Below are positions 2,835 to 51,016 of a stretch of DNA of 64,000 bases, one piece after another. The DNA lies in assembly GCA_963514005.1 (NCBI GenBank), contig OY740786.1, positions 34,286,001-34,350,000 on the forward strand, in the 5' to 3' direction. How positions within the stretch are numbered: the stretch's first letter is position 1; every line of letters begins with the position of its first letter. Made by a program: the position numbers and the translations under genes. The notes under the pieces were generated by a model. That model saw nothing but the letters and a program-made list of their open reading frames with translations, had not been told where the DNA came from and did not search any database. This DNA comes from Raja brachyura (lineage: Eukaryota).

Positions 2835-3429
2835 TTATAAACAGAAGAAGGGTCTCGACCCGAAACGTCACCTATTCCTTTTCTCTAGAGATGCTGTCTG
2901 AACCGCTGAGTTGCTCCAGCTTTTTGTGTCTATCTTAGCCTTAGAAACTTGTCTGGTTCATCGGAAGCAAAATATTGTAATACTGAGAAACATCACAAAA
3001 TATGAATTAAACTGCTAAATGGAAACAACATCCAATAGTCCAGAAAATCTGCTAGTCTGGCACCATCATAGTACCATGTTTGCTGGATTATCAGAGCTAA
3101 AGTGTAATCATTTACTGGGATGTGCAATCTCTTCAGTCCACCGGCTTAAATTTTTTGCTCCATCCTCTTAGTCACTGCAGATATGAGATCACTCAAAGGG
3201 ATGGACTGCTATGTAACTAAATGTGTAATTTAAATTGACATCAGCATATGGACAGCAGCAGGTTTGACGATGGACTTCGACAGTGTACAGTAGAGCATAT
3301 TGACTGGTTGCATCACGGCCTGCTTTGGCAACTTGAGCCCATGAATGAAGGCGATTACAAAAAGGGCTGTACACTGCCCAGTTCATCACGGGTCCTGACC
3401 TCCCCACCATCAAAGGAATCTACAGCAGT

Positions 3430-34545: not shown

Positions 34546-35397
34546 GCGCTTCAGGGATGTCGGGGAAGAACAGAATGGTAACTCTGCCGCTGCGCCATTT
34601 TCCCGCACCTTAAACTTGAGATTTGAACATAAAAAATGTTAAAGTGGAAATCATGCCAGTTTTGTTTGAGGTCATAGCTGGCAATATTATGTAATTCTTT
34701 GCCACAGAAGGCTGGGGTGGCTAAGTCAATGGACAATTTTAAGGCAGAGATAGATAGATTATTGATTAGTACGGGTGTCAGGGGTTATGGGGAGAAGTCA
34801 GGGGAATTTGGTTAGGAGGGAGAGATAGATCAGCCATGATTGAATGGCAGAGTAGATTTGATGGGCTGAATGGCCTAATTCTGCTCCTATCAATTATGAA
34901 GCTATGAACAATATCCCAACTTGACTAGCCATGATACACTGGGCAGGTCAATACTGCAGATCCTGATTCCTCTGTGCCAAGTCACGAGAGGGATGCATTA
35001 CTGCTTCAACTGTTGGGACCTCTTTGTAGGTTTGACCTCCATTGGCAAGTGAGTAATGGTGAGGAGCAGAGTGCATTCCTAATGCCTGCTGTTACACCGT
35101 GCCATCCGGGATCAGCATGTGGCATCTTTGTAATGGGTTCTCAGCTTTAAACAAGAAGGATTTACCAGATAAATTATTACCCTGGCACTCGTGGCAGTGC
35201 CCACTCACACTGCTTCACACACAGCAAGCTTGGTGTCAGTGCACTCACATTGCTGCACACACACTGCTGCACCAAGTGATTGTCATAGGTTAGTGCACAC
35301 TCACACTGCTGCACATACACTGGCTATGTGCCAGTGCACACTCACAATGCTGCACACACACTACTCAAGAGAGTGGGCTCTGTGTATCAGTACACAC

Positions 35398-35934
35398 CAG
35401 GGCTGCCAACTCTCACGCATTGAGCGGGAGACTCACGCATTTTGCCAAATTCTCACTCTCACACTAATCTCAAATTTCTCATGCTCTGTCGTGAGAAATT
35501 CTGTGGTCAACGAGAATTTCAAAACATATCAACTGCATGGGCTGCGGGTGTCGTATAACCGGGGCTGAGGGACGGATGGAAGCAGAAGCAGTGGTGGGGA
35601 CAGATGCGGATGGGAGCCGGGGCTGGCGAGTGTTTGCCAGGCTGGCGAGTCGCTCGCTGCAGCCCCGGCCATGAAGCAGCCGCAGTGCATGAGTCCCGGG
35701 TTGTCAGAGGCGTCAGAAGTGATGCACCGCTGCCGTGAGAGTCTCTGTGCCGAATTCGCCCAGGTGACCGGCATGGATCAGGCTGCGGCTCGGTGTATCC
35801 TAGAGGGCAACCAGTGGCTGCTGGAAGTAGGTACCAAGCACTGGGTAGAAACGGTGAAAGATAGTGGCCTTCAATTGGAGGTGGTTGGAGAAAGCATCCT
35901 GCTTGCCTGCTAGATTTTCACTTACTGTAACTGC
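35398..35934 (+). mobile_element. Truncated non-autonomous DNA transposon (hAT-like left end) carrying a gene fragment
   Basis: Begins CAGGGCTGCCAACTCTCACGCA, followed by repeated (T)CTCAC(G) subterminal motifs. This resembles hAT-Tip100-type termini. No matching right TIR was found; the sequence runs into a CR1 fragment at about 35935. Confidence 0.5.
35576..35826 (+). pseudogene. TDP2: TDP2-like exon 1 fragment (UBA-like domain), followed by a GT donor
   Basis: RESLCAEFAQVTGMDQAAARCILEGNQWLLE aligns by eye with the TDP2 UBA-like segment RRLLCVEFASVASCDAAVAQCFLAENDWEME. It ends at GAA|GTAGGT (GT at 35827-28). An upstream ATG at 35576 joins the frame after a 1-nt indel. Confidence 0.7.
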
Positions 35935-36120
35935 AGGTAACTGTTCCCGATGTTGGGGGAGTTCAGAACCAAGGGTCACAGTTTAAGAATAAAGGGTAGG
36001 CCAGTTAGGACTGAGATTATTACCCTGGCACTCGTGGCTGTGCCCATTCACACTGCTTCACACACAGCCAGCTTGGTGTCAGTACACTCACATTGCTGCA
36101 CACACACAGTTAGGACTGAG

Positions 36121-37873
36121 AACTCCTTCTTTGTTCGCTTTGAGGCAAAACTAGAAGAGCTTGTCACCATTCTTCCACCAGCCCCTAACAACAACAACTA
36201 CACCCTCACTGTGCAGGAGCATGAAGTGAGGCGGGTGCTCAGGGCGGTGAACCCGAGGAAGGTTGCCGGACCGGATGGCGTGACAGGAAGGGTTCTGAAG
36301 GAATGTGCAGACCAGCTCTCCGAGGTCTTCACGAAAATCTTCAACCTGTCCCTGTCCAAATCCATCATCCCACCGTGCCTGAAGTCTGCTACAATCATCC
36401 CACTACCAAAAAAGCCTGTTATCCGCGGCCTTAACGACTACCGACCGGTCGCTCTCACACCAGTCATCATGAAGTGTTTTGAGAGGCTGGTTCAGCAGCA
36501 CATCAAAGCCAGCCTACCGTCCATCTTCGACCCACACCAGTTTGCCTACAGAGCAAATAGGTCCACTGAGGATGCCATTGCCACTGCCACTGCTCTTCAC
36601 ACTGCACTGACCCACCTCGAACACCAGGGGAGCTATGTGAGGATGCTCTTCATTGACTTTAGCTCTGCCTTCAATACCATATAACAATTACAGATTCTTT
36701 AGAAATTTGATTCAAGAAGGATAGTCAAACATGACCTTCCAGGCACAAATCCATGTTGACTGTTCTTGATCAGACCATCAATACCATCATCTCCAGCAGA
36801 CTGGTCACCAAACTCATGGATTTAGGACTTTCCCAACCTATCTGCCTTTGGATCAAGGACTTTCTGTCTAACCGCCCCCAGACCGTCAGACTGGGCCATC
36901 ACCTCTCCACCCCCATCACACTCAGCACCGGCTCCCCACATGGCTGTGTGTTGAGCCCCCTCCTTTACACACTCTACGCCCACGATTGTGCCCCCGCCCA
37001 CTCCACCAACACCATCGTCAGGTTCGCCGACGGCACGACTGTGGTTGGACGTATCTCAGGAGGAGATGAGACAGCCTACAGGGAGGAAGTCCAAAGACTG
37101 GCAGCGTGGTGTTCAGACAACAACCTCATCCTAAACACCACAAAAACAAAGGAAATTATCATAGACTTCCGTAAGAACAGTGCAGCCCTCCAACCCCTAT
37201 TCATCAATGGGGACTGTGTGGAAAGGGTCTCAGACTTCAGATTCCTGGGCACACAAATTGCGGAGGATCTCTCCTGCACCACAAACACCACCACAGTAGT
37301 CAAGAAGGCCCAGCCAGGACTCTACTTTCTGAGGATCCTCAGGAAAAACAACCTGGAAGAGAAGCTGCTGGTGTCCTTCTACCGCTGCTCTATCGAGAGT
37401 GTGCTGGCGTACTGTATAACCACATGGTATGCCAGCTGCTCTGCAGCGGACAGGAAAGTCCTTCAAAGGGTCATCAACACTGCCCAAAAAATCACTGGCT
37501 GCCCACTGCCTTCCCTGAAGGACATCTTCAGCTCTCGCTGCCTTGGCAGGGCAGCCAACATCCTGAAGGACCCTTCCCACCCTGGACACAACCTATTCCA
37601 CCTGCTGCCCTCTGGCAGATGGTACAGGTCTTTCAAAACTCGCACGAACAGACTCAGAGACAGCTTCTACCCCATAGCCATACGTGAGCTTAACAATGCA
37701 AAATAAGAAATAACACTCACATTCAACTGAGTTGTTCTTTTATATGTATATATTTTTACCCTTCCTTATATTTTAAGATTGTTCTTGTGAATCGCACCGT
37801 TGGATTGACTTTTTAAATTTCGTTGCACCATGTGCAATGACAATAAAGAGATTCTGATTCTGATTCTGATTCT
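36121..37873 (+). mobile_element. Rex1/Babar-like non-LTR retrotransposon, 5'-truncated
   Basis: RT motifs KVAGPDGV, LNDYRPVALT, QFAYRANRSTEDA, FIDFSSAFNTI, GSPHGCVLSPLL and FADGTT, with C-terminal HPGH..F.LLPSGR. The 3' tail is (GATTCT)n at about 37850-37873. A 97-bp insertion interrupts it at 36681-36777. Confidence 0.85.
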
Positions 37874-38125
37874 GAGATGAGGACAAACTTTCTTCACCCA
37901 GAGAGTTGTGAACCTGTGGAATTCTCTGCCACAGAAGGCATTGGAGGCCAATTCACTGGATGGTTTCAAGAGAGAGTTACATTTAGCTCTTCAGGCTAGC
38001 GAAATCAAGGGACATGGGGAAAAAACAGGAAAGAGGTACTGATTTTAGATGAACAGCCATGATCATATTGAATGGCCGTGCCAGCTCGAAGGGCCGAATG
38101 ACCTATTCCTGCACCTATTTTCTGC
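37873..38125 (+). mobile_element. CR1 3' fragment continuing the piece at 35935-36015, split by the Rex1 insertion
   Basis: The CR1 sequence ...ttaggactgag|atgagga... is interrupted at 36015 and resumes at about 37873. Confidence 0.75.
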
Positions 38126-38938
38126 ACTTGATTTTGAAGCATTCATGCATGGTGGAGGTATAATGTAGTCATAGAGTGATACAGTGTGAAAACAAGCCCT
38201 TCGGAGCAACTTGCCCACACGCGCCAACATGTCCCAGCTACACTACCTGCTTTTGGTCCATATCCTCCAAAACTATCCTATCCATGTATCAGTCTAACTG
38301 TTGCTTAAATGTTGGGCTAGTCCCTACCTCAACTAACTCCTCTGGCAGCTTGTTCCATACACCCACCACTCTTTGTGTGGAAAAAGTTACCCCGTAAAAA
38401 GTTACCTCTTAAAAATATTTCAAACAAAAAACATTGAAATCATACTTCTACAATGCACAAAACAATGCATGATTTTAATACATCAAATTTGCGTGTGGGT
38501 GTGTGGTCAGTTGTCAGAGCATTTATTGCATCCTGCATGACAATATTGCACCAAGTGATGGATGAACCCAATTTTTTCTTCCCAGTGTAAAGCAAACTTT
38601 CTAAAAGCAGAATTAACAACTAGGTTCATCTTTAAACACGTCTTAGCATTTGAGACATTATTGGGCTGTGACCTTCGAACACTGGAAAGAAAAGGACCTA
38701 TTCTCTCACCATATTTACCAAGTCAAAGGGGTGAGCTGCTCAGTTCCTGTGTACACTTCCAATGGCTGTGGTAACACCAATTTGTAACAGTGATTCCACC
38801 TAATTAAACAAACCTCTGCTCTATGTTGCTGGTAAGAAAATTGCTTCCTTACCACTGCCTTCTGCTTTGATACTTCCAAGACACTGCAGGCATTTCAGAT
38901 CAAAAGTAAACCACTGAGCACCAGATATTTTTTATTTA

Positions 38939-47920: not shown

Positions 47921-50490
47921 GGGTGGAGAACACTCAAGGGATATGTCCCTCTCCTTGTGTTTTCCACAGCCACCTTTTCTAATGTGTGCTGGCTGTCATG
48001 GAGTTCTTTAAGGCCCTGCCATACTTTGCATGGTTACCAGTGACAAAGGAAAGGCAGCTTTGAACTTTCCAGACAATTGCGTTTGAGATCTGTGCCATCC
48101 TGAGCATTCAGGTGGAGAAACACCCAAACAATGTTTCAAAGATAAATTTCTGCAAGCTTACAAACATTTGGGGTGTTCCCCTACGTGGGTTTAGGGCTAA
48201 CACAGCAATGTACCCAATAAGGGTGGATCCAACAACTAGTCAATTTATAACTACTGGGTCAAATCATAAACACAAATAAAATGTGTTGGAAGGAACAGCA
48301 GGTGCTGGTTTACAGACACAACATGCTGGAATAAATGAGCGGTTCACGCAGCATCTCTGGAAGAAGAGTCTGAAGAAAGGTCTCGCCCCAAAACGTCACC
48401 TATTCCTTTTCTCCAGTGATGCTGCCTGATCTGTTGAGTTACTCCAGCATTTTGTGCCTATCTTCAACACACTAAAATGTCCGGTTCACTAATATTTTAG
48501 ATCAACCATTGAACAACTGTCGCACTCACAAAGGCTTTGACAGAACATACCATTTGCATTCTTCTTTGCAAGTGCACCGCCTCTGACTGCCTTCTCAACC
48601 CCCATCAATAATGCCAGAACAAAGTCACATTAACAAGCACCAAGGGAGTTGTGATCTAACTGTTGCAGCATATCAACACTTCAAACAGCAAAATAAAGTG
48701 GTAAATGGGGTGGTTTGTAAAGGCTGACTACATATGCATACACTCCTCCGATATTGTGCTTTGATGTCTGAAGGAATAACTTGAGGATTACACAAAAAGC
48801 TGGAGAAACTCAGCGGGTGCAGCAGCATCTAAGGAGTGATGGAGATAGGCGACGTTTCGGGTCGAGACCCTTCCTCATAACTTGAGGAATCAGGCACACA
48901 TTCCTCATACAAATGTGTTCCTCTTTCCATGGATGGGGAGACGTGATGTACAATTATTAAGACCCAAGCAGAACTGTTGGGATCAAACATAAAAAATCTA
49001 TGGCTTAATTGCAGACAGAGAGACGAAAGAGTGGAAAGTAATATTTAATTCTATTAATTGTGCCAACGAGGATTAGCTTCTGCGGTGAGAGACATTATAA
49101 ACCAGCAAATATTTTATACATTTTTTTAATCAAACACTTAAATCATATTATTAGGTCATTATCTCAGTTTTACTTCAGAACTTACTTTTTCATTCAACAC
49201 AACTTACATTCTTGTACTTAATATGAATGTGCCTAATATACAGTAGGATTGTCGCTGAACTGTGCGCAAGAAATGTATTTCTCTGTACTTAGTTACCTGT
49301 AACCATAAAGTAACATTGATCCCTCAGACAACTGCAGCTCATTGCTCCAATCTAGGCATGTGAATAATATGGTCAGTCGCTGCCTCAAAAAGGCTGCCAG
49401 CATCATCAAGGATCCACACCATCCTGGCCATTCACTTATCTCCCCGCTGCCTTCAGGTAGAAGGTACAGAAGCCTGAAATCTGCAACATCCAGGTTCAGG
49501 AACAGGCTCTTCCCCACAGCCATCAGGCTATTAAACTCAACTAAAACAAACTCTGGTCATTAATAGCCCATTGCACTTAATCTGTTTATTTATGTGTGTA
49601 TATATATCTATATTCATTTGTATATGGTCACACTGATCTGTTCTGTTCTGTATTTATTTATGCCTACTATATTCTGTTGTGCTGAAGCAAAGCAATAATT
49701 CATTTGTTATATCTGGGACACATGACAATAAACTCTCATGAATCTTGAATCTTGAAGAAGGATCTCCACCCGAAATGCCACTCATTCCTTGTCGCCAGAG
49801 ATGCTGCCTGTCCCGCTGAGTTACTCCAACATTTTGTGTCTATCTTCGTTTTAAACCACCATCTGCAGTTCCTTCTTACACATAATATGGTCATTAGAGT
49901 CTGCTTTAAAGCAGGAGTATCTGGAGTCTGGGACTAGTCGGACAAATGGAAATCCCCAAGGGTGGCCGAGAGGGAGGTCAGAACCTTGGTGCGGTTTAAG
50001 TGGAGGGGGATGTGGGGGGGGGGGGATTCCTGGAAAAGAGTGGAAAGGGAAGCTAGAAATCCCAGGAGCAGGAGCAGGTTCAACAATCTAAGTAACGGAG
50101 TATTTCACAATCAAGCCTCTACCGCAGGGTTTTAGCAAGATGTTTATTGGTGGTAAGGGAGGTGGGAATGTGAGGATGTTGGTTTCAAAATAAAATGAAA
50201 ATATCTTCCTCTTCTTAAACTGTGTAGTCCAACTGTGCATCTGAGTAACCTGGGAGTGATGCGTGCATGCAAACAATTGATAGGCAGAAAGACAATATAA
50301 ATGAAATGAAAGGATTTTGGACAAGGTGAAATACCACGCACGAATGTATGGCAAAGCAAATATTTCATGTTCAAATACTGTCCACTGGAAGCTGGGCTGA
50401 AAACGTAATTGCATTGGACTTTGCTAAAATTCCCCATTACATCAGTATTACAATGGTGCCCCAACAAGTCCATTATTTCAACCCACTTAC

Positions 50491-51016
50491 CTTTCATTGG
50501 AGTCCGCCCGTCCTCCAGCATTGGGAGTACGATGGTCGAATTCCTCTGTGACCTCATGGCTGTGTATACCACAGGAACAGATTGTACAACCACTGGAATG
50601 CGGTGCAGTTTGTTGGACGGAAAGTTCATTGCATTTGAAGGTGGCATCGGGTGGATTATGTGCAAGTACTGTTGGCCCCCGACACCTGGCGAAGATGTCA
50701 CAACGGAGCCCGGCGCTAATACTGTAGACATGCCTGTCGATGAAGTCACTGAGGTTATCACAGTTGGGGATGAAGTCAATCGAGGAGCACAAGAGGATAT
50801 CTGAGGGATTGAGGTTATTGTCATTGAGCTGGGAGAGGAACGTGATGATGATACAGCTGTTGGTGATGTCCGGGCTTTGTTAATGGACAAGTCCACTGGC
50901 TCAGTTTGTGTTTGATATTGATCAGTGGATAACAAGACCTCTGGAGGCCCAGCTTTCACATTGTTAAGCAAAATAGGTACAGCTTCCATATCTGAAAAGT
51001 TAGGGGCTTGCGGAGA
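50491..51016 (-). CDS. KLF12: Internal coding exon of Kruppel-like factor 12 (N-terminal repression domain)
   Basis: Translation SPQAPNFSDMEAVPILLNNVK...QTQTEPVDLSINKARTSPTAVSSS...GVGGQQYLHIIHP...HRIPVVVQSVPVVYTA...LEDGR matches the KLF12 N-terminal region as I recall it, including the PVDLS CtBP motif. On the minus strand the acceptor is ttttattttaacAG (AG at 51018-51017) and the donor is aaag|GTaagt (GT at 50490-50489). Length 526 bp, phase 0 to phase 1. The ORF-track extension beyond 50491 is intron read-through. Confidence 0.93.

What the first reader, a model, noticed from the sequence alone, without database searches (positions are those of the whole stretch)
35398..35934. Possible Pack-type DNA transposon that captured exon 1 of TDP2 (UBA-like domain) with its splice donor
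Seen in the sequence: a hAT-like terminus CAGGGCTGCCAAC with subterminal CTCAC repeats is followed by a GC-rich island. The island encodes MEAEAVVGTDADG/EPGLASVCQAGESLAAAPAMKQ...RESLCAEFAQVTGMDQAAARCILEGNQWLLE and ends in GAA|GTAGGT. Established knowledge: the TDP2 N-terminal UBA-like domain has the pattern LC.EFA.V...D.A.A.C.L..N.W..E, and I recall TDP2 exon 1 ending at the equivalent residue. Inference: 5' UTR, exon and intron start were captured at the DNA level rather than as a processed pseudogene, and sit antisense in a KLF12 intron. Pack-TE gene capture is well described in plants and rarely in vertebrates. If multicopy, it would scatter a start codon, ubiquitin-binding domain and splice donor across the genome. 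The captured gene repairs protein-DNA covalent adducts.
Basis: partly seen in the sequence, partly recalled or inferred. Interest (0 to 1): 0.82.

Follow-up and report, generated by a model that had tools for sequence, protein, structure and literature searches.

The report
Transposon spread TDP2 first exon genome-wide
In a skate-like fish, a 3.3-kb jumping DNA element with no transposase of its own picked up the first exon and the start of the first intron of the DNA-repair gene TDP2 and spread that piece to about 1,400 places in the genome, an unusually large amplification for this known kind of gene capture, although the copies are decaying and likely do nothing.

Summary
Confirmed, with corrections. 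Window 35398 is the left end of a non-autonomous, ~3.3-kb terminal-inverted-repeat (TIR) element (CAGGGCTGCCAAC...GTTGGCAGCCCTG). I located the native seven-exon TDP2 gene on another contig. Element positions 147-1180 match its 5' leader, exon 1 and about 630 bp of intron 1, including two repeats nested in the intron (7.9% mismatch), and the gene has no element end nearby. So capture happened as DNA. The exon/intron junction occurs 1,380 times in this genome (control 0), and the whole element is covered at high depth in runs of four other coded organisms. Corrections: target-site duplications are 5-8 bp, mostly 6-7, not 8; no transposase partner was found, so 'hAT' is unproven. The exon holds only helices 1-2 of the UBA domain. 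This copy is frameshifted, LINE-interrupted and lacks its right end. Copies decay close to neutrally, and no chimeric splicing was seen in weak RNA data. Sister families with the same ends carry other CpG-rich DNA. This is a Pack-TIR, a known kind, but the published multicopy examples I read have about three copies. This scan noted similar captures (GRIN3, BAZ1A) in shark genomes, not this one.

The parts
35398..35539 (+). Left end of the element: 13-bp TIR CAGGGCTGCCAAC (35398-35410) and subterminal CTCAC(GC) repeats
   Evidence: Flanks are unrelated in 30 loci and homology starts at or within a few bases of this position. A subterminal 25-mer occurs 1,948 times, control 0.
35540..35575 (+). 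Captured TDP2 sequence upstream of the ATG (likely 5' UTR)
   Evidence: Match to native G000:C2:140267789-140267826
35576..35826 (+). Captured coding part of TDP2 exon 1 (N-terminal tail plus UBA helices 1-2); frameshifted in this copy by a 1-nt deletion after 35614
35827..35931 (+). Captured splice donor GTAGGT and unique start of TDP2 intron 1
   Evidence: Aligns to native intron 1. In four RNA-guess runs the native donor is joined to exon 2.
35932..36017 (+). First part of a high-copy LINE 3' fragment (CR1-like, label recalled) that sits at the same place in native TDP2 intron 1 and was captured with it
36018..37871 (+). Later insertion into this copy only: about 90 bp resembling window 35177-35263, then a LINE reverse-transcriptase fragment ending in GATTCT repeats
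37872..38394 (+). Rest of the captured intron 1 block (end of the LINE fragment, spacer, SINE-like repeat), up to the right capture junction
   Evidence: Consensus 620-1180
38395..38490 (+). Start of the element's further internal DNA. The copy is truncated here: about 2 kb and the right TIR are missing.
50482..51016 (-). Host context, approximate limits: large KLF12 exon. The zinc-finger exons lie beyond the window start, so the element is antisense in a KLF12 intron.

Best explanation
This is a decayed copy of a non-autonomous TIR DNA element that carries about 1 kb copied as DNA from the 5' end of the host TDP2 gene and that spread to about 1,400 sites, likely moved by a transposase supplied from elsewhere and likely without benefit to the host. 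Shown: paired TIRs, 5-8-bp target-site duplications, an intact parent gene free of element ends, a retained intron with its nested repeats, the copy number, and near-neutral decay. Inferred: the capture arose by template switching or gap repair inside an older element with these ends. It likely predates the split of several skate-like species, since the element keeps amino acids that other skates' TDP2 also has. The chimeric element then likely amplified in at least two waves as a passenger.
For: Parent gene: seven exons matching skate TDP2 at G000:C2:140267827-140287554. Captured block = consensus 147-1180 against native 140267789-140268717, 70 mismatches in 889 aligned columns. Nearest real element end is about 153 kb from exon 1. 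Exact TSD in 14 of 24 paired ends, against 3 of 552 mismatched flank pairs; 18 of 27 in a second set. Junction 25-mer: 1,380 hits, control 0. 30 of 30 loci picked by the left end alone carry 116-252 nt of the exon. No long transposase-like frame in the consensus (longest stop-free frame 166 aa). Non-CpG divergence is 4.7% in the exon against 3.6-5.8% in non-coding parts; only 2 of 25 end-picked copies keep ATG, frame and donor. A 15-bp near-tandem repeat sits at the right capture junction. At four positions 14-22 of 55 copies keep the native base, which marks an older subfamily.
Against: The transposase partner was not found beside 50 hAT and 15 P-type transposase loci, so the mobilizing enzyme is unidentified. 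The N/S ratio among copies is 0.82 of the neutral expectation (491:250, binomial p 0.01), a slight deficit, though copies share substitutions by descent. The donor of the element's other ~1.8 kb was not found. The window copy has only one end, so it has no TSD of its own. The capture route (template switch or end bypass) is not resolved.
Confidence: 0.88

Rival explanations
1. Capture by end bypass: an element landed next to TDP2 exon 1 and moved off with the flanking gene piece between two ends, building a composite element.
For: A sister family shows this build: an outer left end, about 980 bp of extra DNA, then an inner left end. Consensus 1267-1347 resembles the right subterminal region.
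Against: No element end or remnant at either native breakpoint. The TDP2 block lies between the left end and unrelated internal DNA, with no inner terminus of this family beside it.
Confidence: 0.25
2. Some copies were co-opted as alternative first exons or cryptic donors, or regulate TDP2 through shared-sequence small RNAs.
For: The donor GT is kept in 49 of 55 sampled copies and the ATG in 48 of 55. A second copy in KLF12 lies sense with an open 84-codon frame. Low-depth element-type contigs occur in RNA-guess runs.
Against: The exon decays like non-coding DNA. Among the loose ends shown in four RNA-guess runs, the only join at the donor was to TDP2 exon 2; 25 loose ends were not shown. The sense KLF12 copy would splice out of frame into the next exon. 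Helix 3, with the residue critical for ubiquitin binding, is in exon 2 (PMC5137425).
Confidence: 0.12
3. Processed pseudogenes or segmental duplications of TDP2.
For: There are many TDP2-like copies.
Against: Intron 1 is retained and exons 2-7 are absent from the element. Copies end at TIRs with TSDs, on many contigs.
Confidence: 0.01
4. Reverse direction: TDP2 exon 1 came from the transposon.
For: Element copies vastly outnumber the gene.
Against: The exon matches the solved TDP2 UBA chain 6q00_B and, weakly, a second full-length TDP2 chain, so it is older than the element. There are no element ends at the gene.
Confidence: 0.01

Closest known systems
Animal Pack-TIRs (Tan et al. 2021, PMC8277862; I read the abstract, passages of sections 4, 7, 8, 9 and 12, and section 14 whole; supplements not read)
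   Same: Host DNA inside a TIR element; parent locus free of element ends; intron kept; distinct TSDs; multicopy cases far from the parent and GC-rich.
   Different: They report four multicopy cases among 100 reference genomes, the frog CAPSL example on three chromosomes, with a median capture of 224 bp. Here about 1 kb with a coding first exon sits in about 1,400 copies. Their filter required a unique top hit, so it would likely miss families like this one: the rarity may partly reflect method.
Plant Pack-MULEs / Pack-TYPE elements (as described in PMC8277862 passages; PMC8903248 seen as a search listing only)
   Same: Non-autonomous TIR elements carrying GC-rich gene fragments, moved in trans.
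   Different: Vertebrate host; 13-bp TIRs with 6-7-bp TSDs.
hAT5/hAT6 (Blackjack lineage) and hAT7 (PMC12730594, passages read)
   Same: CAG...CTG ends and a TSD shorter than 8 bp. The likeness of the terminus to Blackjack-type ends is recalled, not tested.
   Different: TSD length varies from 5 to 8 bp within one family, and no transposase is linked, so membership is open.
Gene-capturing Helitrons of bats and Xenopus (PMC4224331, PMC12001565; search listings and abstract starts only)
   Same: Vertebrate DNA elements that capture and amplify host gene pieces.
   Different: Rolling-circle elements without TIR or TSD (recalled); this element has both.

Membership tests
Pack-TIR | Paired terminal inverted repeats of one element | tested here: met
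   24 of 40 long loci hold both ends
Pack-TIR | Distinct target-site duplications | tested here: met
   14 of 24 exact, against 3 of 552 shuffled pairs
Pack-TIR | Internal sequence traced to an unambiguous host parent without element ends | tested here: met
   Native TDP2 on C2
Pack-TIR | DNA-level capture, not a retrocopy | tested here: met
   Intron 1 and its nested repeats are shared; exons 2-7 are absent
Pack-TIR | Non-autonomous | tested here: met
   No stop-free frame over 166 aa in the 21-copy consensus
hAT (canonical) | 8-bp TSD | tested here: not met
   32 exact TSDs: 5 bp x1, 6 bp x14, 7 bp x14, 8 bp x3. Elements at five hAT-domain loci in the same genome gave 8 bp.
hAT5/hAT6/hAT7 or P superfamily | Autonomous partner with matching ends and a classifiable transposase | tested here: inconclusive
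   No matching terminus at 50 of 150 listed hAT-domain loci (30 with only 1.5-kb flanks) or at 15 of 15 P-domain loci with 1.5-kb flanks
hAT5/hAT6/hAT7 or P superfamily | Terminal match to curated Repbase/Dfam families | not testable with these tools
   No repeat library is on hand
TDP2-type UBA domain | Complete helical bundle including helix 3 (human Phe62) | tested here: not met
   The match stops at Pfam position 30 of 43 and at chain residue 34 of 45. The xAINSYF motif is in exon 2. Role of helix 3 from PMC5137425 passages.

The most novel reading that the evidence does not exclude
Skates carry a vertebrate counterpart of the plant Pack-MULE system: one set of transposon ends has repeatedly captured CpG-rich gene 5' ends (TDP2 and at least one other, unidentified) and scattered well over a thousand start-codon-plus-donor cassettes, some of which now act as alternative first exons or feed small RNAs that regulate the parent repair gene.
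Probability: 0.12. Interest if true: 0.78.

Novelty: new variant of a known kind. Interest (0 to 1): 0.5.

Why it matters
It shows that TIR transposons in a vertebrate can amplify a captured coding first exon to a four-figure copy number, far above the few-copy cases in the one animal survey I read, and that such families would likely slip through surveys that need a unique parent hit. The copies preserve the ancestral state of TDP2 exon 1 and intron 1. They offer about 1,400 natural tests of whether a donor-bearing exon cassette gets co-opted or purged, for example through orientation bias in introns. Practically, they will confuse TDP2 annotation, read mapping and primer design in these fish. 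No function is shown.

Tried and rejected
A protein search with an element copy's frame found nothing among longer proteins; the native exon did find two skate TDP2 proteins, so the first blank was a sensitivity limit. The autonomous partner was not found at 50 hAT and 15 P loci, nor inward of 40 further right ends. The donor of consensus 1456-2990 is not in the 200 kb around TDP2. Donor of the sister family's CpG island: of 30 loci fetched from 172 hits, L288 looked like a parent but proved to be a truncated, LINE-split copy. The run search listed no holder on record as RNA; this is no evidence either way. An in-frame fusion of the sense copy with the KLF12 zinc-finger exon is rejected on phase. 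P0125, an unnamed 110-aa gene call from an ENA assembly, reads as exon plus intron read-through of another copy and is no sign of expression. Literature: a search on tdp2 / transposon / captured / uba and one on skate / dna transposon / captured / host gene / nonautonomous listed no paper on this element. The library lacks subscription journals and Repbase Reports, so a prior repeat-library entry is not excluded.

Full report
OBSERVATION. The terminus, ATG and GAA|GTAGGT donor are at the stated places. The peptide is split over two frames by a 1-nt deletion after 35614. The downstream frame hits Pfam UBA_4 (25.7 bits, cut-off 21.8) and, alone among PDB sequences up to E 1, the TDP2 UBA chain. 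The large exon near window 50482-51016 on the minus strand is KLF12, with best hits of 92-93% in rays. Its zinc-finger exons lie at about C6:34259000 and 34248000, so the element is antisense in a KLF12 intron. Nearest protein hits point to a skate or ray.

THE ELEMENT. A genome search with the 537 bases gave 3,583 first-look candidates; all 40 scored matched at 86-100%, nearly end to end. In 30 loci homology starts at the TIR with unrelated flanks. Of 40 longer loci, 24 held both ends. A consensus of 21 copies of 2.5-3.9 kb is 3,343 bp long, ends in the reverse complement of the left TIR and has no stop-free frame above 166 aa. Fourteen of the 24 have an exact TSD (7 bp x9, 6 x3, 8 x1, 5 x1), against 3 of 552 mismatched flank pairs; one extra pairing with an inner left end was dropped. 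A second set of 40 right ends was picked from 63 listed on C1 so as to avoid obvious TDP2-family copies. Left ends were found in 27 of them and exact TSDs in 18 (6 bp x11, 7 x5, 8 x2). Genome counts of 25-mers with up to two mismatches, all with control 0: left subterminal 1,948, exon/intron junction 1,380 including the native gene, middle 977, right end 2,345. The junction pattern detects 48 of 55 exon-bearing copies, so 1,400-1,600 junctions is a fair inference. Some elements hold internal duplications, so the number of elements may be somewhat lower. All 30 loci picked by the left 130 bases carry 116-252 nt of the exon; that query came from a TDP2-family copy, so the sample leans to this family.

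THE WINDOW COPY covers consensus 1-626 (35398-36017) and 620-1272 (37872-38490). It is split by a LINE reverse-transcriptase fragment and has no right end.

THE PARENT. I found the C6orf62-type gene by its Pfam family and read 200 kb downstream, following the human gene order as I recall it. Seven exons there match skate TDP2; the last hits solved TDP2 at E 2e-38. Exon 1 codes 86 residues at C2:140267827-140268084 and exon 2 starts in phase 0. Consensus 147-1180 aligns to 140267789-140268717: 38 bp of leader, the exon, unique intron, a LINE 3' fragment and a SINE-like repeat in the same order, with 70 mismatches in 889 columns. The element also holds 89 bp that the present native intron lacks, and residues shared with other skates' TDP2 where this genome's gene differs. 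This fits capture from an ancestral allele. Exons 2-7 are not in the element. No terminus lies at the gene; the nearest real one is a 330-bp relative about 153 kb away. In four runs guessed to be RNA, a contig joins the exon end to exon 2, which supports the donor as the gene's real one.

AGE AND FATE. Four runs labelled organisms B-E cover all 30 bins of a full copy at high summed depth, and listed contigs in three of them bridge the left-end/TDP2 junction. Depth there is no copy number. Fifty-five copies with the exon contiguous were analysed (30 picked with the exon query, 15 of 30 by left end, 10 of 20 by right end; the rest were duplicates or rearranged). They differ from the consensus by 6.1% on average. 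Non-CpG change is 4.7% in the exon and 3.6-5.8% in non-coding parts; CpG sites change 12-15%, while the native exon keeps a CpG ratio of 0.91. N/S is 0.82 of the neutral expectation (p 0.01 if copies were independent, which they are not). Only 2 of 25 end-picked copies keep ATG, frame and donor; 15 of 30 exon-picked ones do. The exon stops before UBA helix 3, which carries the conserved aromatic residue needed for ubiquitin binding (PMC5137425, passages read). A working ubiquitin-binding module is therefore unlikely.

MECHANISM. Shown: DNA-level capture and repeated insertion with TSDs. Inferred: an older non-autonomous element copied the TDP2 block by template switching or gap repair (15-bp near-tandem repeat at the right junction) and was then amplified in trans in at least two waves (subfamily bases). 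End bypass remains a rival, because a sister family is built that way. The transposase was not found. The TSDs fail the 8-bp rule of canonical hAT. hAT groups with 5, 6 and 7-bp TSDs are described (PMC12730594, passages; Repbase classification rules in PMC4455052, passages), so a Blackjack-related hAT is my best guess, resting partly on recall.

SISTER FAMILIES. Most of the second right-end set (8 of 40 carry TDP2 exon sequence) belong to ~2.2-kb families that share only consensus 1-91 and 2992-3343. One has a CpG-rich block with an ATG and a GTGAGT donor-like site (172 pattern hits with up to one mismatch); its parent was not found. That it is a second captured gene end is inference.

COMPARISON AND VERDICT. 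The element meets every tested Pack-TIR criterion. Tan et al. (PMC8277862) found four multicopy cases in 100 animal reference genomes, with an example of three copies, but their filters would likely exclude high-copy families. Two paper searches listed nothing on this element, and repeat libraries could not be checked. Unchecked notes of this scan describe similar captures in shark genomes, one with over 100 copies; nothing matched this sequence. Verdict: real and well supported; known mechanism, exceptional scale, no function shown. Interest 0.5.

Noticed in passing
G000:C6:34263157-34266485 (L006/L065), about 55 kb from the window copy: A second TDP2-family copy in the same KLF12 gene, in sense orientation, with an open 84-codon frame and an intact GT donor. 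The next KLF12 exon is phase 2, so a splice would be out of frame.
   Followed up: yes
L243, L244, L263, L269, L275 and others: Sister family of about 2.25 kb with the same ends and a CpG-rich inner block holding an ATG and a GTGAGT donor-like site; possibly a second captured gene 5' end. Parent not found.
   Followed up: partly
L238, L247, L250, L262, L265, L271: Sister family built as an outer left end, about 980 bp of partly CpG-rich DNA, and an inner left end: a composite that then amplified as a unit.
   Followed up: partly
TSDs across: TSD length varies within the group: mostly 7 bp in the TDP2 family and mostly 6 bp in the sister families, while ordinary hAT-type elements in the same genome give 8 bp.
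   Followed up: partly
window 36018-36120: At the 5' junction of the LINE insertion lies an approximately 90-bp copy of window 35177-35263, flanked by a repeat of AGTTAGGACTGAGA; it looks like a templated insertion from nearby DNA.
   Followed up: no
element consensus 1200-1455 and about 2480-2650 (e.g. L062, L080): Further internal DNA looks like a mosaic: an end of another DNA element, a 36-bp repeat also found 11 kb upstream of TDP2, and an old LINE-like remnant. Source locus unknown.
   Followed up: partly
G000:C2:140362736-140363230 and 140421193-140421529: Two short elements with related termini (TAGGGTTGCCAAC type; CAGGGCTGCCAAC type) downstream of TDP2.
   Followed up: no
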